This document shows positions 4,012 to 49,712 of a DNA stretch of 64,000 nt, piece by piece. Origin of the DNA: an uncultured Chloroflexia bacterium (lineage in GTDB: Bacteria > Chloroflexota > Limnocylindria > Limnocylindrales > CSP1-4). The notes under the pieces are model-generated. The model saw nothing but the letters and a program-made list of their open reading frames with translations, was not told where the DNA came from and did not search any database. Both the position numbers and the translations under genes were made by a program. Location: positions 1,383,188 through 1,447,187 of the forward strand of contig OY969885.1 of the NCBI GenBank assembly GCA_963704325.1. The letters run 5' to 3'. Each line of letters starts with the position of its first letter. Position 1 is the stretch's first letter.

Positions 4012-4425
4012 GGCGCGAGCGTAGCGCGGCTCAGCGGACGGGTGCGCCGACGCCTGGCCGCGGCCTTCACGGACGCGTTTGTTGGCCACGGCCGAAGTAA
4101 CAGCCAAGTTGTGGGCTGCGCTGCCCCCAAAGCGGGGCATCTGTGCCGTTTGTTCGCGCTGGACGAAGAATTGGGCGAGTTGCTGGCAGTTTGGGCGGCT
4201 TCCTGGCTTTTACTTCGTCCACGGCGAACAAGTGGCGCCAACTCTCGTGCCGGGCCGCGTGGGGCGCCGCGATTGCGCCTCCACGACCCCTGATCTAGAC
4301 TCAATCCTGACGTGGATAGTCGGAATTCGACAGCCTTGGATCCCCTTACAGCGGCCGTCCTTGAAGAGGGCGTGGCGCCGGCCAAGCTTGCCCGCACGCG
4401 GAGCATCTTCCCTGGCACCGGCGCC

Positions 4426-4889
4426 GTGCACTTCTCGACGCGCGGCGAGTACGGGGTGCGCCTGATCGTGGAGCTGGCGCGCCATTTTGGCTCCGGTCCG
4501 GTCAGCCTGGGCGAAGTTGCCGATCACGAGGCCCTGCCGCGCCCGTACCTGGAGCAGCTCGTCATCAGCCTGCGTGAGTCGGGCCTGGTGCGCAGCACGC
4601 GCGGCGCGCGCGGCGGCTACGAGCTTGCCCGGCCGCCGGAGGAGATTCGCATGGGCGAGGTGCTCAGGGCACTCGAAGGGCCGATCGCACCGATGATCTG
4701 CGCGAGCGAGGATCCGGCGCATGCGTCAATGTGCGAGCGGACCGGCTTCTGCAACGTCAATCACCTGTGGCTGACCGTGCGCAAGGCGATCTCCGGCGCA
4801 CTCGACTCGATCACGCTCGCCGACCTGGCCGTTCCCCGGTCACGCCACCCGTTTCACTCGGGCCCAATACCCATTCAGCTGACGGAGTC

Positions 4890-4893
<4 letters not shown>
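4426..4893 (+). CDS. Rrf2-family transcriptional regulator (IscR/RirA-like, 3 Cys)
   Basis: VHFSTRGEYGVRLIVELAR...LEQLVISLRESGLVRSTRGARGGYELARPPEEI with a C-terminal Cys cluster (C-x6-C-x5-C). GTG start at 4426, in frame with the longer ORF. The stop overlaps the sufC start. Confidence 0.8.
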
Positions 4894-5819
<926 letters not shown>

Positions 5820-5845
5820 GTCCGCAGGAAGGGAGTAGCCAAGAC

Positions 5846-7094
5846 ATGGCCATCGTCCGGCCGCTCGATCCAGTCTCCGTGCGCGCCGACTTCGCGATCT
5901 ATGAGCGCGAGTTCCGCGGCCGCCGCCTGGCCTACCTGGACAGCGCCGCAACCAGCCTCAAGCCGCGCGCTGTGGCCGACGCGATGTCGGGCTACCTCAA
6001 CCGCTACAGCGCCAACGTCCACCGCGGCATCTACGAGATCGGCGAGGAGGCCACCGCGGCGTACGAGGGCGCGCGCACGAAGATTGCCAATTTTTTGGGC
6101 GCGGCTGACTCGCGCGAGGTGATCATGGTGCGCAACGCGACAGAGGCGATCAACCTCGTTGCCTACGCCTGGGGACGCAAGAACATCGGCCGGGCGGACA
6201 CGGTCGTGGTGACGGAGATGGAGCACCACTCCAACCTCATTCCGTGGCAGATGCTGACCCAGGAGAAGGACGCCGACCTGGAGTTCGTGCCCTTCGATGA
6301 CGAAGGCCGGCTGATCCAGGACAGCTACGACGTCCTGCTGCGCACCAAGCCCAAGCTCGTCTCGTTCACCGCCGTGTCGAATGGCATCGGCACGATCAAC
6401 CCGGTGCGCGAGATGGTTGACAAGGCGCATGAGGCCGGCGCGCTGGTGCTGATCGACGGTGCCCAGGCCGCTCCGCATGAGCCGGTCAACGTCCAGGAGC
6501 TGGGCTGTCGACTTCTTCGTCTTCTCCGGCCACAAGACGCTCGGCCCGCCAGGCTCCGGCGCGCTCTGGGCGCGGCGCGAGATCCTGGAGGACATGCCCC
6601 CGTTCATGGGCGGCGGCGAGATGATCCGCGAGGTGCACCTGCGCCACACGACATACAACGAGGTGCCCTTCAAGTTCGAGGCGGGGACGCCGGACATCTC
6701 CGCGGCGATCGGCCTCGGCGCGGCGGTCGACTACCTGACCGGCATCGGCATGGAGCACATTCGTGCCCACGAGCGCGACCTGGTCGAGTACGCCCTGGAC
6801 ATGCTGCCGCGCGAGGTGCCCAGCATTCGCATCCACGGGCCGCTGTCGGCATCCGACAGGGCCGGGATCGTCACTTTCAATTTGGCCGACGCGCATCCGC
6901 ATGACGTGGCCACGCTGCTCGACCGCGAGGCCATCGCAGTCCGTGCCGGCCACCACTGCACGATGCCGCTCCACCAGCGCCTGGGCGAGGAAGCCAGCGC
7001 CCGGGCAAGCTTCTACGTCTACACCGATCGCGAGGACATCGACCGCCTCGCGCAGGCACTTCAGAAGGTCGAACGCATGTTTGCCCGAAACTAG
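5846..7094 (+). pseudogene. sufS: cysteine desulfurase SufS, interrupted by a +1 frameshift near 6506
   Basis: The N-terminal 220 aa (5846 frame) and C-terminal 200 aa (6459 frame) are both SufS. The junction ...HEPVNVQELG | VDFFVFSGHKTLGPPGSGALW needs one extra T removed in ctgggcTgtcgac. The PLP-lysine motif SGHK is intact. Confidence 0.8.
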
Positions 7095-7099
7095 GAACC

Positions 7100-7498
7100 G
7101 TGGACGACCTATACCGCGACGAGATCCTCGAGCACTACCGCAACCCGCACAACTTCGGCATCCTGGATTCGCCGACCACGGCCAAGGAAGGCGCCAATCC
7201 GCTGTGCGGCGACCGGATCACGCTGATGCTCTCGATCAACGACGAGGGCACGGTCGAAGACGTGTCCTTCACCGGCCGCGGCTGCGCGATCAGCCAGGCC
7301 TCGGCCTCCATGCTGACCGATGACATCAAAGGCAAGCCGCTGTCGGAGATCGCGCAATTCGACCGACAGCACGTCCTGGACAACCTGTCGATCGAGATCA
7401 GCCCGGCGCGCATGAAGTGCGCGATGCTGTCGATCGAGACGCTCAAGTCGGCCATCGACGATCGCGTCGACTGGCAGGGCAAGCTCGATGAATCCTGA
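7100..7498 (+). CDS. sufU: SufU/IscU-like Fe-S scaffold (NifU N-terminal domain)
   Basis: ILEHYRNPHNFG...CGD...GCAISQASASM...KCA carries the conserved Cys triad. GTG start. Confidence 0.85.
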   Translation: MDDLYRDEILEHYRNPHNFGILDSPTTAKEGANPLCGDRITLMLSINDEGTVEDVSFTGRGCAISQASASMLTDDIKGKPLSEIAQFDRQHVLDNLSIEISPARMKCAMLSIETLKSAIDDRVDWQGKLDES

Positions 7499-8645
7499 TC
7501 GGTCGCTGCCCCTGGCGCGCGGGCCGGTACGCGAGGTGATGCCGGCCGAGGCGGCTGAGCTGATCGCCGCTGGCGCGGTCCTGCTCGACACGCGCGAGCA
7601 GCACGAGTGGAACGCCGGATACCTGAACGGCGCCACGCTGCTGCCGCCGATGCAGGTCACGCAGCGTGTTGAAGAGATCGCGCCGGACAAGAGCAGGCCG
7701 GTCGTGATCTATTGCGCGGCGGGGGCGCGATCCATGCGCGCCGCGGTCCAGCTCGCCCAGATGGGCTACACGGACGTGGCGTCCATGGCCGGCGGCATCG
7801 GACTGTGGAAGTCGGAGGGCCGGCCCACCCAGATGCCGCAGTCGACGCCGGCCGTCGCGAGCAACCCGCGCTACGCGCGCCACCTGGTCATGCCGGAGGT
7901 CGGGCCGGAGGGCCAGGCCAAACTGCAGCAGTCGAAGGTGCTGTTCATCGGTGCCGGCGGGCTGGGCTCGCCCGGTTTGCTGTACCTGGCCGCGGCGGGC
8001 GTCGGGACCCTGGGCATCGTCGATTTCGACGTGGTCGACCTTTCCAACCTGCAGCGCCAGGTTGTCCATGCCGACAACCGGATCGGCATGAAGAAGACCG
8101 CGTCGGCGGCGCAGACGATCCGCGCCCTCAACCCTGAGGTGAAGGTCGTCGCGCACGAGGAGATGCTGACCGAAGAGAACGTCGATCGGCTCATCGCGGG
8201 CTACGACGTCGTGATCGACGGAACGGACACGTTCGAGACGCGCTACACGCTCAACGACGCTGCCGTGCGCGCGGCGATTCCGGTCGTGCATGCATCGGTG
8301 TTCCGCTTCGAGGGCCAGCTGAGCGTCTTCGTGCCCTACGAAGGGCCGTGCTACCGCTGCCTGTATCCCACGCCGCCACCGCCCGAGCTTGCGCCCGGTT
8401 GCTCTGTCGCGGGCGTGCTTGGCGTCGTGCCGGGCGTGATGGGCCTGCTCCAGGCGACGGAGGCGATCAAGGTCCTGCTGCACATCGGCGATCCGCTCGT
8501 GGGCCGCCTCTTGATCTGGGACGCGCTCGACGGAGCGTTCAGCGAGGTGACATTGCGCCGTGATCCGGCCTGTCCGGCATGCGGCGTGGACGCCAGCCGG
8601 CGCGAGGTCGCCGCCGCTCAGCCCGCCTTCGCCAGCGCCGGGTGA
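7488..8645 (+). CDS. rhodanese-ThiF/MoeB (E1-like) fusion, MoeZ-like with rhodanese at the N-terminus
   Basis: Residues 1-120 are a rhodanese domain (active site YCAAGARS). Residues 130-385 are a ThiF/MoeB adenylyltransferase (GAGGLGSP, RQ, CYRC...CPAC zinc motif). Confidence 0.85.
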   Translation: MNPDRSLPLARGPVREVMPAEAAELIAAGAVLLDTREQHEWNAGYLNGATLLPPMQVTQRVEEIAPDKSRPVVIYCAAGARSMRAAVQLAQMGYTDVASMAGGIGLWKSEGRPTQMPQSTPAVASNPRYARHLVMPEVGPEGQAKLQQSKVLFIGAGGLGSPGLLYLAAAGVGTLGIVDFDVVDLSNLQRQVVHADNRIGMKKTASAAQTIRALNPEVKVVAHEEMLTEENVDRLIAGYDVVIDGTDTFETRYTLNDAAVRAAIPVVHASVFRFEGQLSVFVPYEGPCYRCLYPTPPPPELAPGCSVAGVLGVVPGVMGLLQATEAIKVLLHIGDPLVGRLLIWDALDGAFSEVTLRRDPACPACGVDASRREVAAAQPAFASAG

Positions 8646-8665
8646 CCCGGGTCCGAATACCTCCC

Positions 8666-8935
8666 GTGCTGCGCGTCCATGTCGGCGGGCAGAAGGAGGT
8701 GGACGCTTCTGGAGCCACGGTGGGCGAGCTGCTGCGCGAACTCTCGGGCCGCAGCTCTGGACTGGCCGAGCAGCTCTTCACGGACGACGGCGCACTGCAT
8801 CGCTTCGTCAACGTCTATGTCAACGGCCAGGACGTGCGCTACCTGTCGGAGCTCGACACGCCCGTGTCGGAGCGCGATGCGGTGATCATCCTGCCGGCCA
8901 TGGCGGGAGGCTCGGCCGCCGCCACAGGCTCTTGA
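8666..8935 (+). CDS. cysO: CysO/MoaD/ThiS-like sulfur carrier with a 7-residue extension after the Gly-Gly
   Basis: 90 aa with ...ILPAMAGGSAAATGS* at the C-terminus. GTG start. The stop overlaps the cysM TTG start (TTGA). A JAMM protease lies downstream. Confidence 0.7.
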   Translation: MLRVHVGGQKEVDASGATVGELLRELSGRSSGLAEQLFTDDGALHRFVNVYVNGQDVRYLSELDTPVSERDAVIILPAMAGGSAAATGS

Positions 8936-9864
8936 GCGTCAGCGTCTCGCTGCTCGACCTGATCGGGCGTACACCGCTCGTCGATATCTCCCGTTTCTGC
9001 CCAAATCCCGGCGTCCGGCTGCTGGTCAAGCTGGAGGGCGCCAACCCCACTGGATCGGTCAAGGACCGCGTGGCGCGCTACCTGGTTGCCGACCTGGAAC
9101 GCGCAGGCCGCCTTGGTCCGGACGCGATCATCCTGGAGCCGTCGAGCGGCAACACCGGCATCTCGCTCGCGCTTGTGTGCCTGTTGAAGGGCTACCGGTT
9201 GACCGTTGTGATGCCGGACAACGTGACTCGTGAGCGGCGCCAGCTGCTCGAGCTTTACGGCGCTCAGATCATCGATTCACCCGGCGCCCTGGGCTCCAAC
9301 GGCGCGGTGGCGATGGCCCGTCAGCTGGCGGCGGCCGATCCGCGCTACGTCATGGCCGACCAGTACGCCAACCCGGCCAACCCGCTCGCCCACTACGAGA
9401 CGACCGGCCCGGAGATCATCGCCGACTGCCCGGAGATCGACGTCTTCGTCGCCGGACTGGGCACGGGCGGGACGCTGATGGGCGTGAGCCGGCGACTGCG
9501 CGAGCTCGACCGCCCGGTGCGCATCTACGCCGCGGAGCCGATGCCGGGCGAGATGGTCCAGGGCCTGCGCTCGATTGACGAGGGCTTCGTGCCCGAGATC
9601 TTCGACCCGTCGGCCATTGACGGTCGCTTCCTCGTCACAACAGCCGAGTCGATCGAGGCTTTGCGCAGGCTGACCGCGACCGAGGGGATCTTTGCCGGCG
9701 TCTCGGCCGGGGGAGTGCTTGCCGTCGCGTCGCGCATCGCGCTGGGCATGGAGTCGGGGACCATCGTTGCGCTCCTCGCCGACGGCGGCTGGAAGTACCT
9801 GTCCGAAAACGTCTGGTCGCGCGACCTCGATGATGAGTCGGTGGAGAGCCTCAACCTGTGGTGA
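8932..9864 (+). CDS. cysM: O-phosphoserine sulfhydrylase / cysteine synthase CysM (PLP-dependent)
   Basis: TPLVDI...KLEGANPTGSVKDR (PLP lysine), SSGNTG and GTGGT motifs. TTG start coupled to the cysO stop. Confidence 0.85.
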   Translation: MSVSVSLLDLIGRTPLVDISRFCPNPGVRLLVKLEGANPTGSVKDRVARYLVADLERAGRLGPDAIILEPSSGNTGISLALVCLLKGYRLTVVMPDNVTRERRQLLELYGAQIIDSPGALGSNGAVAMARQLAAADPRYVMADQYANPANPLAHYETTGPEIIADCPEIDVFVAGLGTGGTLMGVSRRLRELDRPVRIYAAEPMPGEMVQGLRSIDEGFVPEIFDPSAIDGRFLVTTAESIEALRRLTATEGIFAGVSAGGVLAVASRIALGMESGTIVALLADGGWKYLSENVWSRDLDDESVESLNLW

Positions 9865-23016: not shown

Positions 23017-23592
23017 ATGACCAATTCGACCGACGTCGCCCAAATTCAGGGCGTCGACAGCCAGGCCTACCGCGAGGTCCTGACGCGCTACGCCACGGGC
23101 GTCACCGTGGTCACGACGCTCGACGACGAGGGCGACGGCGCACAGCCGTGGGGGACTACCGTCAACTCGTTCACGGGCATCTCGCTCGACCCGCCGCTGG
23201 TCATGGTCGCGATCGGCCGCGAGCGCTCCATCCATCCGATCATCGAGCGCACCAGGCGCTTCGGCGTGAACATCCTGGGCGAGGACTCGCAGCAGATCTC
23301 GGACTGCTTCGCCGGGGCGCCCTCGCCGCTGCCGCGCTCGGCCTTCTGCAACGCGGCCTACTCGCTCGGCGAAGCCGGGTTGCCTGTTTTGGACGCAGCA
23401 GTCGCCCATCTCGCGTGCGAGGTCGAGCGAGTGATCGAGGCCGGCGACCACACGATCTACCTCGGCCTGGTCGTCGAAGCCGGCTGCCGCGACGAAGTCG
23501 GCTGGCCACTCCTCTACTTCCGCCGCCGCTACCTGCGCATCGAGCGCGCCCTGACGCCTGACGTGCGCGGCAAGCCGGACGCATTGCGCTGA
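23017..23592 (+). CDS. flavin reductase family protein (HpaC-like)
   Basis: FREVLTRYATGVTVVTT...NSFTGISLDPPLVMVAI flavin reductase-like domain. Confidence 0.8.
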   Translation: MTNSTDVAQIQGVDSQAYREVLTRYATGVTVVTTLDDEGDGAQPWGTTVNSFTGISLDPPLVMVAIGRERSIHPIIERTRRFGVNILGEDSQQISDCFAGAPSPLPRSAFCNAAYSLGEAGLPVLDAAVAHLACEVERVIEAGDHTIYLGLVVEAGCRDEVGWPLLYFRRRYLRIERALTPDVRGKPDALR

Positions 23593-23620
23593 GCGGCCCG
23601 TCCTCGTCGGAGTCCCGGCC

Positions 23621-24518
23621 ATGCCGCTGATCCGTGCCAATGGCATCGACGTTCACTACGAGGTCGACGGGGCCGGGCCACCGCTGCTGATGCTGCACGG
23701 GGCGACGTCATCGGCCCAGGAGGACTGGTCGGCCCAGCTGCCCGCCTTCCGCAAGGCATTCCGCGTCCACCTCATCGACGCGCGCGGCCACGCCCGTACG
23801 AAGTGGGACGTGCGCGATGGATTTCGACCGCGACATGCTCGTCGAGGACCTGCTCGCCTTCGTCGATGCGCTCGGGCTGGCCACTTTCCACCTGGTCGGC
23901 TTCAGCATGGGCGCGATGACGGCGCTCGCCTTCGCCACGCGCCATCCCGAACGGCTGCGCACGGCGATCATCTGCGGCATCGACATCGTGCGCGAGCCGC
24001 GCTCTAGCGTGGCGCGACGGCTGATGGATCCCGAGCGCATCCTGCGCGACGAGCCCGAATGGGCGGCCCAGCTGGAGCGGCGCCACGGGCCGGTGCAGGG
24101 CGAGGGAGCCTGGCGCCATCTGTTGCCGGCGATCGCCGCGGACGTGGCCACGGCGCCGCTGCTGACCCACCAGGATCTGCGCCGCATCCGCCTGCCGGTG
24201 CTGCTCGTGTACGGCGACAGGGACGTGTTCGTCCCGGCCGATCACGCCGTGGCCATCTATCGCCAATTGCCTGACGCGCGGCTGCTCATCGCGCCAAACT
24301 CGCCGCACACGGTGATGGTCAGCCAGCCGGCGTTGTTCAACCAGGCCGCGGCCAGCTTCTATCGTTCCACGGAGGCAGTCGCTCGGGCACGCGCCGCGAG
24401 CGGGGCCGAGAACGCGCCAACTTCCGTTGCGGCGACCGATGGCGCCGTGCTCTACGAACCGTCCGCGATAGCCGTGGCCGATGGCGATGACGAGCAGGAA
24501 CCCTTCAGCAAGTGGTAG
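23621..24518 (+). pseudogene. alpha/beta-fold hydrolase, interrupted by a frameshift near 23812-23826
   Basis: N-terminus (LLMLHGATSS...HLIDARGHARTKWDVRDG) in one frame. The rest (FDRDMLVEDLLAFVDALGLATFHLVGFSMGAM... with GFSMG nucleophile elbow) continues in the +1 frame. Confidence 0.7.
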
Positions 24519-31244: not shown

Positions 31245-31341
31245 CGCAAGGCGAGTACCGGTCTGGAGAACGCGGCCGGGTGACCTTTGGGCTATGACGG
31301 TGCATGGCCGCACCACTCCTACACTACGGCTCATGCCTCGG

Positions 31342-32571
<1,230 letters not shown>

Positions 32572-32572
32572 G

Positions 32573-34938
32573 ATGGACAACGACCTGATGGCCCGGCGGC
32601 TCCGCCCGCCTTCCGAGCCGAGCCGCCCTAACGGGGCGCCATTCATCCCGCCGCCATCGGCCGCACCGTGGGATCCCACGCCGGCGCCGTGGCACGGAAG
32701 CCAGACTGATGCGCCGCTCAACCAGGTGCCCTGGGATCAGCCCGCTGCCGAGACGCCCGTCAAGCCGCTGTCGGATGACGGATGGCCACAGGTTGAGCTG
32801 ACGCCACCGCCGGCCCCGATTGAAGCTGCGCAGAGCCCGGCCGCGGCCGAGCCCACGCCTGTCGATGCCGAGCCACAGGTCGAGCAGATGCCCGAAGCGG
32901 CGGCCGAGCAGGCCGTCGAGGATGTCGATGCCCCGTGGGACGCGCCCGCCGACCCCGTGGAATCAATGGACGCACGGGCCGGAGGCCCCTCATGGGATGC
33001 GCCGTCGCCGTTCGCGATCGATGACGAGCCGCCGTTCGTGGACGATCGCACGCTGGAGATGTTCGACGCGTACGAGGAGCCGGTGGCCGTCGCGGCCACG
33101 GCTGTCGCCAACCCGGCTTCGACGCCGGCCGATGCCGACCGCGAGCCGGAGTCGGTCACAGAGGCTGTTGCCACGCATGCCATTGCCGAGGCGCCCGCTG
33201 CGCCAGAGGCGGCAACCGCGGATGTGGCCAGCGATCCGTACGACGCGGACGCTCCGGTCGTGCCCGAAGTCGCTCGCCAGGCACTGACACCGGCGTGGCC
33301 CAGCTGGAACGGCCATATCGGCGGTGGCCACGAGGGTGAGTCGATGTCACCTTCGCCGGCGTCATCCACGGCCGGCGTATACGAACACGAAGAGCACTCG
33401 CCGGGCGATGAATTCACGGCCAGCGAGTCGCGCGACATCGAGCCTGAGACGCCCGCGCCGTGGGCGACCGATTGGCCCGCCGCGGTTGAGGTGGCCGAAG
33501 ACGCTGACGGCACGGCTTATGACCAGGTGGCAGCCGAAGGCTACGCAGAGCCCGAAGCAGAGGCAGAGCCCGAAGCAGAGGCAGAGCCCGAAGCAGAGGC
33601 AGAGCCCGAAGCCATGGCCGAGCCAGAGGCGACCCCCGCTGGCGATCTGACGACCTCCGAATGGCCCGAGCCCGCAACGCCCGCCTGGGCGCAGCCGGAG
33701 GCTCCTGTATGGACGGATCCTCAGGCGCCTGCCTGGACGGAGCCCGCCGTGCCTGCCTGGGCACAACAGCAAACCAGGCAGTGGATGGCTCCGGCCGACG
33801 CGGTGGCGTCCGAGCCCGAAGCAACCGAGACCGCATCTGAGCAGGAGCCGGCCGTAGAAGAGACCTGGCCGACGGGGCAGGAATCGCAGGAGACGCGCGT
33901 CACGCAGGTCGTGGCCACCGTCCCCGTCGATGCGGCGGCGCTGGCCAACGGTCCGACTACCGTCATAGCCTCCGGGCCCGAGTCGGGCTTGCCGGCGAAC
34001 CTGGTCCTGCGCATCGAGCTGGCCTTCGTTGAGGATGCCAATTCGGATGCACCAGAGCAGGAAACGAACGCATCAGCCGAATCTGTAGCGCCCGAAGCGG
34101 CCCTGCCATGGCTACCTGCCGATCCCGCTTCAGAGTGGCCCACGCTGGTCCAGCCGGACGTCGAATTCGAGGCACCAACCTCGCCGCCGGACGCCGCGCC
34201 GACGACCTTCGAGCCTGACGCCGAAGGCGCTCATGACCCAATCGGGGACGACGCCGCCGCCGAGACGCCCTTCGCGCCACAGCGCAGCACAGGCGCATTC
34301 GGCGACGACCAATGGTGGGGATCTGCCCCGGCACAACAGCCGGACTCCCCGTACGAGCCTGCCGTTCCTGCCTGCTTCCTGCCACGCCTGCCGCGCCGCC
34401 AGCGCCGCCAGCCGCGGCCGCCGCCCCGTCTCCGGCAGCTCCAGGGAGCGTCGCCTGGCCGACTGAATCTGCCGACGAGGACCTTTCGGCGTGGCCGCCG
34501 GTCTGGGAGCCTGCGGCAGCGGAAGCGACGCCGCTGACGGCACATCCCGAGCCGCCTCCCGGGGCCGACTCGTTCGATTGGGGCTGGCCCGCGCCGGCAC
34601 CTGCCGGCCAAGCATCTGTTCCGGACGCCTTGGCGGCCGATACCTTTGCCCCGCCCCCAGCGTGGCCAGCGTCCGTCCGGCCGCTGACCCCGCCCGCGAT
34701 CGCACCGGCCGCACCGGCCGCACCGGCACCCAGGGTGAGCACCATAGATGTGCCTCAGAATGACTTGTGGTTCCTCGCCGCCGAGCCAGCGCCAGTTGCC
34801 GAAGAGTCAGTTCCGGCGCCCGGCGAGGACAGCCCCAGATCGTCAATGCTGACCGCCGGCCTGACGATCGGAATGGCGGTCGTCGTCGTGATCCTCGTGC
34901 TGGTTTTCGTCCAGCTCATGACGTCGCTGCTGCGCTGA
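32573..34938 (+). pseudogene. large acidic Pro/Ala/Glu-rich repeat protein with C-terminal transmembrane anchor, with an apparent frameshift near 34365-34380
   Basis: ATG at 32573. Low-complexity body with recurring P-x-W motifs (PAWAQPEAPVWTDPQAPAWTEPAVPAW, also AWPPVWEP, WGWPAP). The 32471 frame becomes Arg-rich junk after ...YEPAVPA. The 34312 frame continues the same composition and ends in the TM helix LTIGMAVVVVILVLVFVQLM. Confidence 0.6.
33548..33613 (+). repeat. perfect 18-nt tandem repeat (gagcccgaagcagaggca, ~3.7 copies) encoding (AEPEAE)n
   Basis: Seen directly at 33548-33613 inside the acidic protein gene. Confidence 0.7.
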
Positions 34939-34953
34939 GGTACGATCAGCGAC

Positions 34954-35367
34954 ATGCTGAACACGGAAACCCCCGCGACGCCAACCATCCAGGCTCAGCC
35001 AGAGCAGCTCGTCGTCCTCAGTGACGCGGCCGCCAGCAAGCTCCAGGAGCTGGTCGCGGCAGAGCAGAACCCCCAGATGGGGCTGCGCGTCTATGTGTAC
35101 AGCGGCGGCTGCTCAGGCTTCCGCTACGGGATGATGCTGGAAGACCAGCCCAGTAATGAAGACATCACGGTCGAGAGCCGCGGCATCAAGGTCTACGTGG
35201 ATCGCCAGAGCACGCAGCACCTGAGCGGCTCGGAGATCGACTACCTCGATACGCTGATGGGCGCCGGTTTCACGGTTAACAATCCCAACGCCGTATCAGC
35301 CTGTGGTTGCGGAAGCTCGTTCCGCACTGACGACGCCGCCGGCAGCCCCGGTGCCTGTCACCACTAA
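34954..35367 (+). CDS. A-type Fe-S cluster carrier (HesB/IscA/ErpA/SufA family)
   Basis: The C...CGCGSSF motif (three conserved Cys) with the HesB fold pattern. Confidence 0.85.
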   Translation: MLNTETPATPTIQAQPEQLVVLSDAAASKLQELVAAEQNPQMGLRVYVYSGGCSGFRYGMMLEDQPSNEDITVESRGIKVYVDRQSTQHLSGSEIDYLDTLMGAGFTVNNPNAVSACGCGSSFRTDDAAGSPGACHH

Positions 35368-35390
35368 GCCGGTCCTGAATCAGCTGATGG

Positions 35391-35423
35391 GCGGCGAGCC
35401 GAAAGGCTCGCCGCTTTTTCTTT
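35391..35423 (+). terminator. intrinsic (Rho-independent) terminator
   Basis: Perfect 10-bp stem GCGGCGAGCC/GGCTCGCCGC, GAAA tetraloop, then TTTTTCTTT. Sits 24 nt after the erpA stop. Confidence 0.7.
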
Positions 35424-45570: not shown

Positions 45571-46497
45571 TCAGCCCGCGCGCAGGACCAGGATGTGCTG
45601 GTGGACGATGTTCGGAACGAAGCCGCGCGGGTAGCCGTAGGGCCGCAGGCGCGTTCCCGCCTGGTACCAGATGAGATCGCCCTTGGTCACGAAGCCCACT
45701 CGCTCCGCGCGTGCGCACAAGTCAGCGCCGGTGAAGCGGTAGCGGCCGTCCTGGTACGCGTCGCGCACGATGATCGTTGCGTAGCGACCCTCGCGCAGCA
45801 CTCGCCGCAGCTCGGCCAGAACCGCCTCCATGCGCGTCAGGTACTCCTCGTAACTGGCGCTATTGGCGAGATCGGCGGGATCGTCGGACACCATCGCGTA
45901 GTCCGTCCGGCGGTTGGCGAAGCGAGTGGCCAGGGGTCCACCGGACATCGTGATGCGCAACTGCGGGTTGTAGGGCGGATCTGTCGCCACGAAGTCGATC
46001 GACCCCGACTCAAGCCCGGCCAGCAGGCCAACCGCGTCGCCCACGACCATCCGGCTGCCTGACGGATCGAAATGCCGTGCGCCGCCCGGATCGGCCGAGC
46101 CCAGATCGGCCAGGGTGTGCGCTGGCCCATCGCCCTCCACGGACTCTGCCTGGGCTACCGCGCTGTAGACGTCCGCCCAGCGCTGCTCCAGCTCGAAGCC
46201 GAGCGCGCGCCGTGGCGAGCGGCAGATTGCAGCGCCGAGCAGAGTGCCACCCACTCCTGCGAACGGATCGAGCACCAGCTCACCGGAGCGGGTGAAGAAT
46301 TCGATCAGGCGGGCCATGAGGCGAGGCGGCTTATTGGCGCCGTGGACCTTGCGTGTCGCGTGGCCTAGCTCGGATGGATACGCCGTCGTCCAGAGCGACT
46401 TGGTGAAGTAGAGCCACTCGTCGCCGGGCAGCTCGTTCAGGACGTTGCCCGGATGCACCGCTCGCTTTGCGGATGACCCATCCGAACCGTCCTTCAC
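45571..46497 (-). CDS. DNA methyltransferase (N6-adenine or N4-cytosine class), no cognate nuclease visible
   Basis: AdoMet motif KPPRLMARLIEFFTRSGELVLDPFAGVGGTL and catalytic VATDPPYN. Neighbours are a peptidase and a LuxR regulator. Confidence 0.8.
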   Translation of the reverse strand: MKDGSDGSSAKRAVHPGNVLNELPGDEWLYFTKSLWTTAYPSELGHATRKVHGANKPPRLMARLIEFFTRSGELVLDPFAGVGGTLLGAAICRSPRRALGFELEQRWADVYSAVAQAESVEGDGPAHTLADLGSADPGGARHFDPSGSRMVVGDAVGLLAGLESGSIDFVATDPPYNPQLRITMSGGPLATRFANRRTDYAMVSDDPADLANSASYEEYLTRMEAVLAELRRVLREGRYATIIVRDAYQDGRYRFTGADLCARAERVGFVTKGDLIWYQAGTRLRPYGYPRGFVPNIVHQHILVLRAG

Positions 46498-46535
46498 CCC
46501 TCAAGTATCAACCAGACCACCGCTATCCTTCGCCG

Positions 46536-49500
46536 ATGGCGTTCATCGGTCGTGAACGCGAATTGGCTGTCCTTGGGTCGGCTTTTCAGCGTGCCCTCGA
46601 CAACGGTCCCACGCGGGTGGCAATCCACGGGCCACTGGGCATCGGGATCACCAGCCTTCTCGACGAGCTCGAGAGCAGGCTCGAGGGCGCGCCGGGTGTC
46701 GCCGTTTGTCGCGTGCGCTGCTATGCGTCGCTGAGCGCGGCGCCGTATGGCGCACTTGCCACCGCTCTCGGCGCGGCCCTGGCGGCGGCGCCCGACGATC
46801 GGCTCGCGGCGGTGGTGCACGGAGCTGGTCACGACACGCTCGCCCTGGTGCCTGCCATGGGGGAGCGAATGGCGCGCCTGGGCATCAGCGCCGATCCGCC
46901 CGCCCTTCAGGCACCCGACCAGCTTGGTGCTCGTGTGCGAGAGGCGCTGTTGGGCGTCATGGAGAGACTGGCCGCCGGACGCCAGCTGTGCCTGATCGTC
47001 GAGGACCTGGAGCACAGCGACCCGGCCACGCGCGGGCTGATCCAGGCCCTGCTGCGCACCAGCCGCCGCCTGTCGCTGACTCTGATCGTGGCCTACCACG
47101 CAGACGAGATGGCGCGCGATCATCCGGCGCGCGCTCTGTTGCGCGAAATGACAGAGAACGCCGAGGTGCAACAGGTCGCCCTGCCGCCACTGACGCGCGA
47201 CGAGCTGCTCGAGCTCGTTGAGCGACTCCACGGCGAGCGTCCCACGCTCGGCTTCATGGCCGCCGTGCTGGAGGGATCGCGCGGCAATCCCCTGCTGGCG
47301 ACTCAGCTGGTAGAGGCGGCACGGCGCCTGGACGGCCTTCGCCTTTCCGATCCACTGGAGGAGATCGTCCAGGCGCGCGTGCAGCAGCTAGACCGCGGCA
47401 CTGCCCTGGCGCTGCGCCTGCTCTCAGTGGCCAGGCGGCCGATCGAGGGCGAGGCGCTCGAGGGCCTGCGCCTGGAGCGCGGTCACCTGCCGCGCGCGGT
47501 GAAGGCGCAGCTGATCGAAAGCGGCCTGGTCGTTGAACGAGGCGGCTCGCTGAGCGTCGTCCACACGCTGTGCGCCGAGGCGATCGAGGCGTCGACCCTG
47601 CCCGGGCAGCGCCGGGCGCTCCACGCCACGCTGGCCGAGCGCCAGTCGGGAGACAGCGCCGAGCCAGCCGAGGCGGCTTGGCACTGGGCGCGCTCGGGCC
47701 GGCCGGCTGAAGCACGCGCCGCGCACCGCGCCGCCGCGCAGCGGGCCGATCGGCTCGACCCGGGCGCCAGCGCCCTGATCCACTACAGCGCTCTGCTCGA
47801 GCTGGGCGACGCGCCCGGCGCGGCGGCCGCGGATAAGGATCCTTCGGCAGATGTGGCTCTCCTCGCCGCGGCGGCGTGCGCAGCCGACGCCAGTGGCGCC
47901 TTCAGGCGCGCCGCGTCGCTCGTCGAGCAGGCCGTCGAGCGGCTCGCAGCGGGTCGCGTGGAGAAGCTGCTCGGCTCGGCCGGCGCCAGGAGCAGCGAGC
48001 CGGTTCGCGAACACGCTTCCCGGCTGCTCGAGCAGCTTGGCCGGCACCGGCGTTCGAGCGGCGACCTGGACGGGGCGCGCGCGGCCTTCGAACAGGCGCT
48101 GGAAGTCGCGCCGGCGAATATGCCCGTTGCACGCGCTCGGGCGCTGGCCGCGCTGGCCCAGGACCTGATGCTCGAGGGCCGCTTCGAGGAGAGTGCCGCG
48201 ACCGCAGAAGCGGCGCGTGCGGCCGCGGCCGAGTCCGGCGACGAGGGCCTGGCAGAGCTGGTTCATGCCACGGACACGCTCGCCGTAGACCTGGGCTTCA
48301 TGGGCCACATCGACCGCGCATTGGGCCTGCTCGACGAGGCCACGGCCGCTGCGCGACGGCTGGGCCGACTGGACGAGCTGATGCGCTGCTACGCCAATCG
48401 GACGACTCTGCTCGACCTCGACCTGCGCCGCGAGGAGGCACTCGCCGTGGTCAAGGACGGCATGGCCGAAGCGAGCCGTAACGGCCTGGGCATGACCTAT
48501 GGCGCGTTCCTGCGTGGCAATGCGGCCGACATCCTCTTCCAGCTCGGTCGCTGGGAGGAAGCCGAGGCAGAGTGCCGTGCCGCGCTCGAGTTTCCGCCGT
48601 CGGGCGTGGCCTGGTTCAGCCCGATCCTCTACCTCGGCATCGTCCTGGTTGAGTCGCGCGGCGATGACGACGCATCGCGCCTGGTCGGGCGGACGCTGCT
48701 TCAGCTCGAGAGCGTGCCCGCCGGGCAGTGGTCGGCGCTCGTCCTGCGCACGGCGGTCAGCCTGGCCCTGTGGCGCGGCGACCTGGGTGACGCGCTGAGC
48801 GCGGCGCAGCAGGGCTGGCCTCGCGTCCGGGAGACGGAGGATCCGTCACAGATCATCATGGCCGCCGCGACAGTGCTCGAGGCGTGCGCCGCCGTTGCCG
48901 AGCAGGGCCGCCAGCGGCGCGACTTCTCGTCTGTCGCGGAGGCCGGCGCGCTGGCCGCCGAAGTCCTCGCCCACGCCACCGAACAGGCTCAGCACCACAA
49001 GCTGCCCGCGTCGCTCGGTGCGCGGCGCGAGTCGGATCTGTACCTGGCCACCGCCCGAGCCCATGCGGAGCGCGTACGCGGCCGGGCCAACCCGCAGGTC
49101 TGGTCACGTTTGGCAGAGGCGTGGGCTCAGCTGCCCGTGCCGTACCAGGCCGCCAAGGCGTACTGGGCCGCCGCGCGCGCCGCGCTGCCCACCAGGGCGC
49201 GCCGCGGTGAGGCTCGACGGGCGCTGCTGGCCGCTTGGAAGATCAGTGGCGCGCTGCCTGCCGATCCGCTGCGCCGCGCGCTGCGCGAGCTCGCCGACCG
49301 TGGCCGCATAACGCTGCCCGAGGACAGGTTCGTGGTGATCCCGATCGAGCGCGAGCGTGAGCTCGTGGCCGTTGGCCCTGGACCGGCGTCCACCGTGCGC
49401 AATGGCGACCAGGACCTGGCCAGCCTCGTTGCCGGCCCGGGCACCCCGCCCGCAGTCGGTCGTTTCGGGCTCAGCCCGCGCGAGAACTCGGTCCTGCTAG

Positions 49501-49712
49501 TGCTCGCCCAGGGGCGCACCAACCGTGAGATTGCCGAGCGCCTGTTCATCAGCGAGAGGACGGTCGCGGTTCACGTGCGGCGCATCCTGGCCAAGCTGGG
49601 CGTCAGCGGCAGGGTTGAGGCGGCGGGCATGGCAATTCGGCTCGGGCTGGTGCCTGACGACCCGCGCGTAGTCGGCTCCCGCCAGCGGTCCGGGAGCGCT
49701 CAGCTGCACTGA
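46536..49712 (+). CDS. LuxR-family (LAL/MalT-like) large transcriptional regulator with degenerate P-loop
   Basis: N-terminal NTPase-like region (GPLGIGITSLL, no Walker lysine), long helical-repeat middle, C-terminal LuxR HTH (LSPRENSVLLVLAQGRTNREIAERLFISERTVAVHVRRILAKLGV). Confidence 0.8.
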   Translation: MAFIGRERELAVLGSAFQRALDNGPTRVAIHGPLGIGITSLLDELESRLEGAPGVAVCRVRCYASLSAAPYGALATALGAALAAAPDDRLAAVVHGAGHDTLALVPAMGERMARLGISADPPALQAPDQLGARVREALLGVMERLAAGRQLCLIVEDLEHSDPATRGLIQALLRTSRRLSLTLIVAYHADEMARDHPARALLREMTENAEVQQVALPPLTRDELLELVERLHGERPTLGFMAAVLEGSRGNPLLATQLVEAARRLDGLRLSDPLEEIVQARVQQLDRGTALALRLLSVARRPIEGEALEGLRLERGHLPRAVKAQLIESGLVVERGGSLSVVHTLCAEAIEASTLPGQRRALHATLAERQSGDSAEPAEAAWHWARSGRPAEARAAHRAAAQRADRLDPGASALIHYSALLELGDAPGAAAADKDPSADVALLAAAACAADASGAFRRAASLVEQAVERLAAGRVEKLLGSAGARSSEPVREHASRLLEQLGRHRRSSGDLDGARAAFEQALEVAPANMPVARARALAALAQDLMLEGRFEESAATAEAARAAAAESGDEGLAELVHATDTLAVDLGFMGHIDRALGLLDEATAAARRLGRLDELMRCYANRTTLLDLDLRREEALAVVKDGMAEASRNGLGMTYGAFLRGNAADILFQLGRWEEAEAECRAALEFPPSGVAWFSPILYLGIVLVESRGDDDASRLVGRTLLQLESVPAGQWSALVLRTAVSLALWRGDLGDALSAAQQGWPRVRETEDPSQIIMAAATVLEACAAVAEQGRQRRDFSSVAEAGALAAEVLAHATEQAQHHKLPASLGARRESDLYLATARAHAERVRGRANPQVWSRLAEAWAQLPVPYQAAKAYWAAARAALPTRARRGEARRALLAAWKISGALPADPLRRALRELADRGRITLPEDRFVVIPIERERELVAVGPGPASTVRNGDQDLASLVAGPGTPPAVGRFGLSPRENSVLLVLAQGRTNREIAERLFISERTVAVHVRRILAKLGVSGRVEAAGMAIRLGLVPDDPRVVGSRQRSGSAQLH

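What the first reader, a model, noticed from the sequence alone, without database searches (positions are those of the whole stretch)
32573..34938. Giant acidic P/A/E-rich protein with W-P repeats, a perfect 18-nt tandem repeat, a C-terminal membrane anchor and a frameshift
- The protein is about 790 aa, about 25% Pro/Ala and strongly acidic.
- It has recurrent (A/P)-x-W-(A/P/T) motifs, a perfect (gagcccgaagcagaggca) repeat of 3.7 copies encoding AEPEAE, no signal peptide, and a single C-terminal TM helix (tail-anchored topology).
- It is interrupted by a frame change near 34370.
- It is co-directional with the upstream thiolase and the downstream erpA.
- It resembles intrinsically disordered cell-division or envelope scaffold proteins of high-GC Gram-positives, but has no recognisable domain.
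Basis: seen in the sequence. Interest (0 to 1): 0.55.

Follow-up and report, generated by a model that had tools for sequence, protein, structure and literature searches.

The report
Tail-anchored disordered acidic protein, orphan family
This is one real gene for a roughly 790-residue, almost wholly disordered, very acidic membrane-anchored protein found only in the Limnocylindria lineage of Chloroflexota. Its function is unknown, and its "frameshift" is most likely a sequencing or assembly error.

Summary
The two open frames (32573 to about 34375, and about 34369 to 34938) together encode one 788-aa protein.

- **Composition:** Ala+Pro 38%, D+E 138 against K+R 18, and 28 Trp. There is a perfect 18-nt x 3.8 repeat and a single C-terminal TM helix.
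- **One gene, not two:** About 20 orthologues are single ORFs of 343-975 aa running from the same N-terminal motif (MDNDLMARRLRPPSEP) to the same TM tail. All come from Chloroflexota / Candidatus Limnocylindrales MAGs, and all lie between a thiolase and an ErpA-like gene.
- **Real coding sequence:** dN/dS is 0.2-0.45, and every tandem-repeat period is a multiple of 3.
- **Structure:** AlphaFold gives pLDDT below 50 for 687 of 788 residues. Only the TM helix is confident.
- **No known relatives:** Pfam, NCBIfam and PDB give nothing. An exhaustive profile search finds only 151 relatives or fragments.
- **Frameshift probably artefactual:** Two other conserved enzyme genes in the window are also frameshifted. 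Broken orthologues occur only in Nanopore MAGs or across an N-run, and the site lacks a slippery heptamer.

The best reading is a cytoplasm-facing, tail-anchored polyanionic tether. It carries about six conserved short motifs and a TM helix with one invariant face. The partner and function are inferred, not shown. Interest is modest.

The parts
31294..32571 (+). Upstream thiolase gene. The likely true start is 31345. Its stop lies 1 nt before the start of the gene under study.
   Evidence: Pfam Thiolase_N and Thiolase_C, E 2e-85 and 2e-49. The same 1-nt junction is seen in L001, L020 and L021.
32557..32562 (+). Shine-Dalgarno-like GGAGAG inside the end of the thiolase gene, upstream of ATG 32573.
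   Evidence: Read from the sequence. This is an inference only.
32573..34375 (+). First part of the coding sequence (frame A), residues 1 to about 600.
   Evidence: ORF. Orthologues start at the same Met, and four of them have a stop codon within 0-2 codons upstream of it.
32573..32629 (+). Conserved N-terminal motif MDNDLMARRLRPPSEPSRP. It is the only basic patch in the protein, and residues 3-7 form a short predicted helix.
   Evidence: Alignments A1 and A2. AlphaFold places a helix at 3-7, with pLDDT about 67.
32726..32746 (+). Invariant VPWD-x-PA motif (P53, W54 and D55 invariant).
   Evidence: A2 invariant columns.
32966..33079 (+). Conserved island MDAR..PSWD.P..F....DDR..(E/D)M(F/L).AYEE. 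It is absent from the short orthologue P0020.
33233..33313 (+). Conserved island DPYDxxAPV ... WPSWNG (D221, D224 and P228 invariant; W242 nearly invariant).
33545..33612 (+). Perfect 18-nt tandem repeat, 3.8 copies, encoding (AEPEAE)n. It lies in an insertion that the closest relatives lack.
   Evidence: TRF reports 100% matches and score 136. Alignment with P0012, P0015 and P0020.
33662..33766 (+). Degenerate 8-residue P-A/V-W repeats (WPEPATPAWAQPEAPVWTDPQAPAWTEPAVPAWAQ). This is a window-specific insertion.
33899..34036 (+). Central conserved island ending in the invariant strand-like LVLRIELA(I/F)V(D/E) (R480, I481 and E482 invariant).
   Evidence: AlphaFold does not model it as folded.
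34365..34385 (+). Zone of the frame change (frame A to frame A minus 1). One base is apparently missing in 34373-34378, next to a short C run.
   Evidence: Three-frame translation. CCTGCC spacing of 9, 11 and 9. No X XXY YYZ heptamer in 34237-34537.
34369..34938 (+). Second part of the coding sequence (frame B), residues about 600-788 plus the stop codon.
   Evidence: Frame B carries the family motifs SxWPxVWEPA (34486-34515), DLWFLAAEP (34762-34788) and the TM tail.
34701..34727 (+). Perfect 9-nt x 3 repeat (APAAPAAPA in frame B).
   Evidence: TRF.
34846..34932 (+). C-terminal transmembrane helix MLTAGLTIGMAVVVVILVLVFVQLMTSLL, followed by one residue (R) and the stop. It is the most conserved part of the protein and has one invariant helix face.
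   Evidence: Hydropathy. AlphaFold helix 758-787 with pLDDT 92-97. Across 79 distinct tails, T765, V772, L775 and F779 are invariant, and conservation periodicity peaks at 100 degrees.
34954..35367 (+). Downstream ErpA-like A-type Fe-S carrier gene, always adjacent to the gene under study.
   Evidence: Pfam Fe-S_biosyn, E 1.3e-19. tblastn found it after the gene in 18 of 19 loci; at the exception (L015) the held sequence ends 28 bases after the gene. It was also found in L020 and L021.
35389..35416 (+). Intrinsic-terminator-like hairpin (12-bp stem, 9 GC pairs, T tail) closing the transcription unit after erpA.

Best explanation
**What it is (shown).**
- The region 32573-34938 is a single, genuinely translated gene.
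- Its product is a roughly 790-residue tail-anchored membrane protein.
- It belongs to an uncharacterised family with no recognisable domain.
- Every relative whose source is named comes from the Limnocylindria/Limnocylindrales lineage of Chloroflexota.

**Topology (inferred).**
- The protein has no signal peptide and one C-terminal TM helix followed by a single residue.
- The roughly 755-residue polyanionic N-terminal part should therefore face the cytoplasm. Its net charge is about -120, and about 87% of the whole protein's residues are predicted disordered.

**How it probably works (inferred).**
- The protein acts as a membrane-tethered flexible scaffold, with rapidly evolving repeat-expanding spacers separating about six conserved short linear motifs.
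- The motifs are the basic N-terminal MDNDLMARRLRPPSEP, VPWDxPA, PSWD...DDRPxxML, DPYDxxAPV..WPSW, LVLRIELAIVD and DLWFLxxEP. They would dock partner proteins.
- The TM helix has one invariant face (T761, T765, A769, V772, L775/V776, F779, M783, L787). That face would pack against itself or against an integral membrane partner.
- The gene is tightly coupled to the thiolase gene upstream and co-transcribed with the ErpA-like gene downstream. Partners among these operon products are possible but untested.

**The repeats and the frame change.**
- The perfect 18-nt repeat is one of many lineage-specific in-frame repeat expansions that make family members range from 343 to 975 aa.
- The frame change at about 34375 is most likely a one-base indel error of the assembly, not a feature of the organism.
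For: **One gene.**
- All short-read orthologues, and most long-read ones, are single ORFs running from the N-terminal motif to the TM tail.
- Frame B carries conserved family motifs with no stop for 570 nt.

**Real protein.**
- dN/dS is 0.21-0.45 in eight orthologue pairs, and 0.20-0.58 in the disordered middle.
- All tandem-repeat periods in 19 genes are multiples of 3.

**Family and lineage.**
- Only 22 clusters were found among 5.8 billion.
- Only 151 representatives were found among 1.84 billion.
- The 17 genome loci are all Chloroflexota / Candidatus Limnocylindrales MAGs.

**Synteny.** Thiolase-X-ErpA was found at every locus where the flanking sequence is held.

**Disorder and anchor.**
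- AlphaFold gives pLDDT below 50 for 687 of 788 residues.
- The helix at 758-787 has pLDDT 92-97.
- Hydropathy agrees.

**Conserved TM face.**

**Operon end.** A terminator lies at 35389-35416.

**Frameshift as an artefact.**
- In the same 64 kb, the Aminotran_5 gene is split at about 6505. Its profile positions 2-192 and 189-371 lie in different frames.
- An alpha/beta hydrolase gene is split at about 23815.
- The orthologues that change frame are L009 and L019, both 'MFD' MAGs.
- L012 contains a run of N inside the gene.
- MFD MAGs are Nanopore-only assemblies polished once with Medaka (PMC12313526).
- No slippery heptamer is present.
Against: - Function is inferred from architecture only. 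No partner, localisation or phenotype is known, and there is no homology to any characterised protein.
- Trp residues are not more evenly spaced than chance, which gives no support to a sticker-and-spacer condensate design.
- One conserved island is missing from a close orthologue (P0020), so not all motifs are essential.
- No strain-level relative or reads were available. The frameshift could therefore be a true mutation.
- The sequencing technology behind this window is unknown.
Confidence: 0.6

Rival explanations
1. The frameshift is a genuine mutation. In this strain the gene would be a recent pseudogene. Alternatively it would yield a soluble 654-aa acidic protein that has lost its anchor and ends in an Arg-rich out-of-frame tail.
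For: - The frame change is in the sequence as given.
- The gene is repeat-rich and prone to indels.
- No intact allele of this strain could be found.
Against: - Frame B shows no decay over 570 nt and keeps all family motifs.
- Two unrelated conserved enzymes in the same window are also frameshifted, including a class-V aminotransferase (cysteine desulfurase type).
- Frame breaks in orthologues occur only in long-read MAGs or across an N-run.
Confidence: 0.17
2. The frame change is programmed: a -1 ribosomal frameshift or transcriptional slippage that produces anchored and unanchored isoforms.
For: Frame B is frame A minus 1, so a -1 slip would join the two frames.
Against: - No X XXY YYZ heptamer lies in the 300-nt overlap of the two open frames.
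- About 16 orthologues encode the protein in one frame.
- The shift lies in a non-conserved, window-specific insertion.
Confidence: 0.02
3. The protein is an extracytoplasmic envelope or surface protein. The acidic Trp/Pro-rich region would lie outside the cell, and the C-terminal helix would act as a sorting or anchor signal.
For: - The C-terminal hydrophobic helix ends in a basic residue.
- Pro-rich acidic repeats are common in wall-spanning regions of surface proteins (general knowledge).
- There are weak compositional matches to MSCRAMM and IgA-binding repeat models.
Against: - No signal peptide or N-terminal hydrophobic segment is present. The RRLR in the N-terminal motif is not followed by an h-region.
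- NCBIfam gave no significant match. That library includes C-terminal sorting-signal models.
- The two weak NCBIfam matches score 11 and 21 bits against cut-offs of 1700.
Confidence: 0.06
4. The region is not a protein-coding gene, but chance open frames of a 68% GC genome.
For: - Long ORFs exist on both strands here.
- A gene caller annotated a minus-strand ORF on a Logan contig.
- A GC3-GC2 coding score does not pick the gene up.
Against: - The start, motifs and TM tail are conserved across about 20 species.
- dN/dS is well below 1.
- All repeat periods are multiples of 3.
- The weak GC3-GC2 signal is expected for Ala/Pro-rich codons.
Confidence: 0.01

Closest known systems
Bacterial tail-anchored inner-membrane proteins (E. 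coli ElaB/YqjD/YgaM of DUF883, DjlC, Flk; the Streptomyces coelicolor tail-anchored set). From my own knowledge.
   Same: - No signal peptide.
- A single TM helix at the extreme C-terminus.
- The bulk of the protein faces the cytoplasm.
- The N-terminal part is used to bind a cytoplasmic partner.
   Different: - No sequence relationship (Pfam found nothing at E <= 0.1).
- It is 3-9 times longer.
- It is almost wholly disordered and polyanionic.
- The TM helix, rather than the soluble part, is the best-conserved element.
RNase E C-terminal scaffold of the degradosome. From my own knowledge.
   Same: - A long disordered region tethered to the membrane.
- It evolves fast and carries short conserved microdomains that dock enzymes.
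   Different: - RNase E uses an amphipathic membrane-targeting helix, not a TM tail.
- It has Arg-rich RNA-binding segments and a large catalytic domain.
- The protein here has no folded domain and is strongly acidic.
PopZ (Caulobacter polar hub) and MamJ (magnetosome-to-filament adaptor). From my own knowledge.
   Same: - Acidic Pro/Glu/Ala-rich disordered or repetitive linker.
- A short conserved N-terminal helix used for client binding (PopZ).
- Repeat copy-number variation (MamJ).
   Different: - No homology.
- PopZ oligomerises through C-terminal helices and is soluble.
- MamJ lacks a TM tail.
- Neither is Trp-rich.
TonB and ZipA type anchored proteins with Pro-rich linkers. From my own knowledge.
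   Same: - A single-pass anchor plus a long Pro-rich low-complexity spacer.
- (Glu-Pro)n-like repeats, as in TonB.
   Different: - TonB and ZipA are anchored at the N-terminus and end in a folded binding domain.
- Here the anchor is C-terminal and no folded domain exists.

Membership tests
Limnocylindria thiolase-linked tail-anchored acidic protein family (unnamed; defined here) | N-terminal motif M-D-N-D-L-M-A-R-R-L-R-x-P-S-E-P at the start codon | tested here: met
   The window has MDNDLMARRLRPPSEP. The motif is present in all full-length orthologues.
Limnocylindria thiolase-linked tail-anchored acidic protein family (unnamed; defined here) | C-terminal TM tail ...LT(I/V)GMA..V..LVLVF.QLMTSLL-x-stop | tested here: met
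   The window has LTIGMAVVVVILVLVFVQLMTSLLR in frame B. 79 distinct tails were compared.
Limnocylindria thiolase-linked tail-anchored acidic protein family (unnamed; defined here) | Internal invariant motifs VPWD, DPYDxxAPV and LRIEL | tested here: met
   A2 invariant columns P53, W54, D55, D221, D224, P228, R480, I481 and E482.
Limnocylindria thiolase-linked tail-anchored acidic protein family (unnamed; defined here) | Position between a thiolase gene and an ErpA-like gene | tested here: met
Tail-anchored membrane protein (topological class) | No N-terminal signal peptide or other TM segment | tested here: met
   Apart from two central windows at 446-447 (score about 1.1), 19-residue hydropathy exceeds 1.0 only from 754 onwards.
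Tail-anchored membrane protein (topological class) | Single TM helix within about 30 residues of the C-terminus | tested here: met
   Helix 758-787 of 788 residues, pLDDT 92-97.
Tail-anchored membrane protein (topological class) | Experimentally cytoplasmic N-terminal domain and post-translational insertion | not testable with these tools
   Needs fractionation, protease protection or reporter fusions.
DUF883 / ElaB-YqjD-YgaM ribosome-associated tail-anchored proteins | Match to the Pfam family model | tested here: not met
   Zero Pfam families at E <= 0.1 for both halves of the protein. Zero families at E <= 0.01 for ten relatives.
C-terminal sorting signals (LPXTG/sortase, PEP-CTERM/exosortase and similar) | Signature motif plus TM plus basic cluster, together with an N-terminal signal peptide | tested here: not met
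   - No NCBIfam match for the C-terminal 189 residues.
- No signal peptide.
- Only one residue follows the helix.
Characterised scaffold proteins with solved structures (PopZ, ZipA, TonB, DivIVA and others) | Detectable sequence similarity of the family profile to any PDB chain | tested here: not met
   A2 profile against 177,635 PDB sequences gave 0 hits at E <= 1.
Programmed -1 ribosomal frameshift site | Slippery heptamer X XXY YYZ in the zero frame within the overlap of the two frames | tested here: not met
   None in 34237-34537.

The most novel reading that the evidence does not exclude
This family could be a previously unrecognised type of bacterial membrane organiser. It would be a polyanionic, Trp-studded disordered tether whose invariant TM face locks it to a specific integral membrane complex. 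Its conserved motifs would hold the products of its own operon at the membrane: beta-oxidation enzymes and/or the ErpA-type Fe-S carrier. An example role would be Fe-S delivery to respiratory complexes. Rapid repeat expansion would tune the reach of the tether. A further possibility is that the frame change is real and produces an unanchored form in this strain.
Probability: 0.12. Interest if true: 0.55.

Novelty: new variant of a known kind. Interest (0 to 1): 0.3.

Why it matters
**If the architecture reading is right.**
- The protein would add a lineage-wide example of a giant membrane-tethered disordered protein with short docking motifs in an uncultured soil and freshwater phylum. Such proteins are little studied in bacteria.
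- The family offers a natural series of linker lengths (343-975 aa) around fixed motifs. That series could be used to study how bacterial disordered tethers evolve.

**Practical value.**
- The frame change should not be read as biology.
- The window carries several indel-type frame breaks, so any other 'pseudogene' called in it needs read-level confirmation.

Tried and rejected
**Searches for known relatives that found nothing.**
- Pfam, NCBIfam and PDB-sequence searches of the protein, its halves, its relatives and the family profile found nothing significant.
- The two weak NCBIfam hits are compositional, scoring 11 and 21 bits against cut-offs of 1700.

**Structure.** The AlphaFold model is disordered apart from the TM helix. 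I therefore ran no fold search, because it would have been meaningless.

**Attempts to find the source contig or an intact allele.**
- Exact look-ups of the frame-A product and of three neighbouring proteins were not on record.
- The ErpA look-up returned only a 1.3-kb Logan contig without DNA.
- The metagenome scan returned no strain-level relative.

**Tests with a negative result.**
- The sticker-and-spacer test showed that Trp spacing is no more even than in shuffles.
- The programmed-frameshift test found no slippery heptamer.
- A 727-aa protein without a Pfam domain, lying after erpA in L002, was checked as a possible paralogue. It is an unrelated polytopic membrane protein.

**Candidate frameshifts that were not frameshifts.** Several candidates from the GC3 map proved to be ordinary adjacent genes: ThiS/PALP, Rrf2/ABC and ABC/CbiQ.

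**Literature.** Searches found no description of such a protein.
Full report
**1. The observation**

An ORF in frame A runs from ATG 32573 and stays open to a stop at 34537. Its last roughly 55 residues are Arg-rich, unlike the rest of the protein. A second frame (frame A minus 1) is open from 34237 to the stop at 34936-34938.

Joining the two frames near 34369 gives 788 aa.
- Glu is 10.4% and Asp 7.1%. D+E is 138 against K+R 18.
- There are 28 Trp.

- TRF confirms a perfect 18-nt repeat at 33545-33612, with 3.8 copies at 100% identity. It encodes (AEPEAE)n. A perfect 9-nt x 3 repeat lies at 34701-34727.
- Pro lies within two residues of Trp in 82% of cases, against 54% expected from composition.
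- Hydropathy shows no N-terminal hydrophobic segment and a single strongly hydrophobic stretch at the very C-terminus.
- The thiolase stop (32569-32571) lies 1 nt before the ATG, and the ErpA-like gene starts 15 nt after the stop.

**2. One gene or two**

A search with the joined protein found homologues of 571-724 aa. Each is a single ORF. One is annotated as a hypothetical protein of Candidatus Limnocylindrales.

All share several features:
- the N-terminal motif MDNDLMARRLRPPSEP;
- a set of internal islands;
- a nearly identical C-terminal tail LTIGMA..VI.LVLVF.QLMTSLL-x.

A scan of species-representative genomes gave 17 loci, all Chloroflexota or Limnocylindrales MAGs. In most of them, including every locus not from the MFD set except L012, the N-terminal motif and the TM tail lie in one open frame.

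In the window, frame B carries the family motifs SxWPxVWEPA, DLWFLxxEP and the TM tail. The two frames are therefore parts of one gene. The start is fixed as well: the motif begins at the Met in all orthologues, and four loci have a stop codon within 0-2 codons upstream of it.

**3. Is it really translated**

- dN/dS is 0.21-0.45 for eight orthologue pairs, and 0.20-0.58 in the disordered middle alone.
- Every tandem repeat TRF finds in 19 family genes has a period that is a multiple of three, from 6 to 186 nt.
- A simple GC3-minus-GC2 coding score misses the gene. This is expected, because Ala and Pro codons have G or C at the second position.

**4. The frame change**

Amino-acid composition places the change between 34365 and 34385. 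CCTGCC recurs at 34358, 34367, 34378 and 34387, with spacings of 9, 11 and 9. One base therefore seems to be missing from a 12-nt unit in 34373-34378, next to a short C run. One possible original reading is ...PAVPACFPATPAAPP....

The site lies in a segment that only the window's protein has, so orthologues cannot give the original base.

Three lines of evidence point to an artefact.
- **Other broken genes in the same 64 kb.** The class-V aminotransferase gene is split at about 6505, with Pfam profile positions 2-192 and 189-371 in different frames. An alpha/beta hydrolase gene is split at about 23815.
- **Which orthologues are broken.** L009 and L019 change frame, and L019 does so several times. 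Both are 'MFD' MAGs. MFD MAGs are Nanopore-only assemblies polished once with Medaka (PMC12313526). L012 has a run of N inside the gene.
- **No decay and no slippery site.** Frame B shows no decay, and the 300-nt overlap of the two frames has no X XXY YYZ heptamer.

I could not obtain reads or a strain-level allele. A true recent mutation therefore remains possible, at about 0.17.

**5. Anatomy of the protein**

AlphaFold2 with the family alignment gives pLDDT below 50 for 687 of 788 residues. The only helices are residues 3-7 (pLDDT about 67) and 758-787 (pLDDT 92-97). The protein is thus an intrinsically disordered polyanion with a net charge of about -120 and a C-terminal anchor.

Conservation is confined to islands:
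- the N-terminal basic motif;
- VPWDxPA;
- PSWD...DDRPxxML;
- DPYDxxAPV...WPSW;
- the central strand-like LVLRIELA(I/F)V(D/E);
- DLWFLxxEP;
- the TM helix.

The TM helix is the best-conserved element. Across 79 distinct tails, T765, V772, L775 and F779 are invariant. Conservation shows a sharp 100-degree periodicity, so one helix face is fixed. That pattern suggests specific helix-helix packing rather than a generic anchor.

Between the islands the sequence evolves fast.
- The flanking thiolase and ErpA are 79-94% identical to the window's across loci where X is 32-58% identical.
- The closest relatives have 92-94% identical thiolase, yet their X protein is only 343-420 aa. The window's protein has roughly doubled through insertions that include the 18-nt repeat and four 8-residue P-A/V-W repeats.
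- Other orthologues have their own expansions: 27 nt x 16.8, 33 nt x 11.5 and 186 nt x 3.3.

**6. Context**

Thiolase-X-ErpA was found at every locus where the flanking sequence is held, usually preceded by enoyl-CoA hydratase and 3-hydroxyacyl-CoA dehydrogenase genes.
- The 1-nt thiolase-X junction recurs in L001, L020 and L021.
- A strong terminator-like hairpin follows erpA at 35389-35416.
- In L020 and L021 the next gene is convergent.

X is therefore the penultimate gene of a beta-oxidation-type operon that ends with an A-type Fe-S carrier.

**7. What it most likely does**

*Shown:* it is one gene, it is under purifying selection, it is restricted to one lineage, it is disordered, and it has a C-terminal TM helix with a conserved face and conserved short motifs.

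*Inferred:* the large part faces the cytoplasm, because there is no signal peptide and only one residue follows the helix. The protein then acts as a membrane-tethered flexible scaffold whose motifs dock partners and whose TM face binds itself or a membrane complex.

The identity of the partners is unknown. Operon products are candidates by association only. Trp spacing is not more regular than chance, so I do not propose a sticker-and-spacer condensate design.

**8. Comparison with known systems**

By architecture the protein resembles several known systems:
- bacterial tail-anchored proteins (ElaB/YqjD class);
- the membrane-tethered disordered scaffold of RNase E;
- acidic hubs and adaptors such as PopZ and MamJ;
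- Pro-rich anchored proteins such as TonB and ZipA.

It is a member of none of them.
- Pfam, NCBIfam and PDB-sequence searches are empty.
- The exhaustive profile search of 1.84 billion representatives returns only 151 family members or fragments.

It is not a protein of high-GC Gram-positives, and nothing ties it to division or the envelope.

**9. Verdict**

This is a genuine but uncharacterised lineage-specific protein family with an unusual, extreme architecture. The perfect repeat is ordinary repeat expansion in a disordered linker. The frameshift is most probably an assembly error. Interest is modest at 0.3. Its value lies mainly in defining the family and in warning about indel errors in this window.

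Noticed in passing
window 5720-7091 (+), break at about 6505: A class-V aminotransferase (cysteine desulfurase type) gene is frameshifted. Pfam Aminotran_5 profile positions 2-192 and 189-371 fall in two different frames. The sequence GGCTGTCGACTTC looks like one extra base relative to ...G C D F F....
   Followed up: partly
window 23555-24515 (+), break at about 23815: An alpha/beta hydrolase gene is frameshifted. Abhydrolase_1 profile positions 1-41 lie in one frame and 47 onward in another. The site GATGGATTTC looks like one extra G.
   Followed up: partly
window 35389-35416 (+): A strong intrinsic-terminator-like hairpin (12-bp stem, 9 GC pairs, T tail) lies directly after the ErpA-like gene. 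It separates that gene from the co-directional NhaA antiporter gene.
   Followed up: no
window 4294-9861 (+): A cluster of sulfur and Fe-S related genes: an Rrf2-type regulator, an ABC ATPase, the broken Aminotran_5 gene, and then ThiS-like and PALP (CysO/CysM-like) genes. The functional labels beyond the Pfam names are my reading.
   Followed up: no
window 46467-49712 (+): A 1081-aa ORF whose C-terminus reads like a LuxR-type helix-turn-helix (…TNREIAERLFISERTVAVHVRRILAKLGV…). It is probably a large LuxR/MalT-class regulator. This was read by eye and not searched.
   Followed up: no
L011 3478-6189; L017 6001-8928; L009 6001-8765: Orthologues carry much larger in-frame repeat arrays than the window: 27 nt x 16.8 copies at 97% (L011), 33 nt x 11.5 (L017) and 186 nt x 3.3 (L009). 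These give proteins of 900-975 aa.
   Followed up: partly
L012 about 6001-8326: The orthologue in this short-read MAG contains a run of N inside a tandem EWPEPEAVAEPVAEAE-type repeat. This shows that the gene's repeats also break short-read assemblies.
   Followed up: no
Logan contig of run ERR12037361: A 1305-bp contig encoding an identical ErpA starts, by my arithmetic, at roughly window position 34360. That is the frameshift zone. Its gene caller annotated a minus-strand ORF over the tail of the gene. No DNA could be retrieved.
   Followed up: no
L020 4406-5437 (protein P0020): This close orthologue (343 aa) lacks the whole PSWD...DDRPxxML island. That conserved motif is therefore dispensable in at least one lineage.
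   Followed up: no
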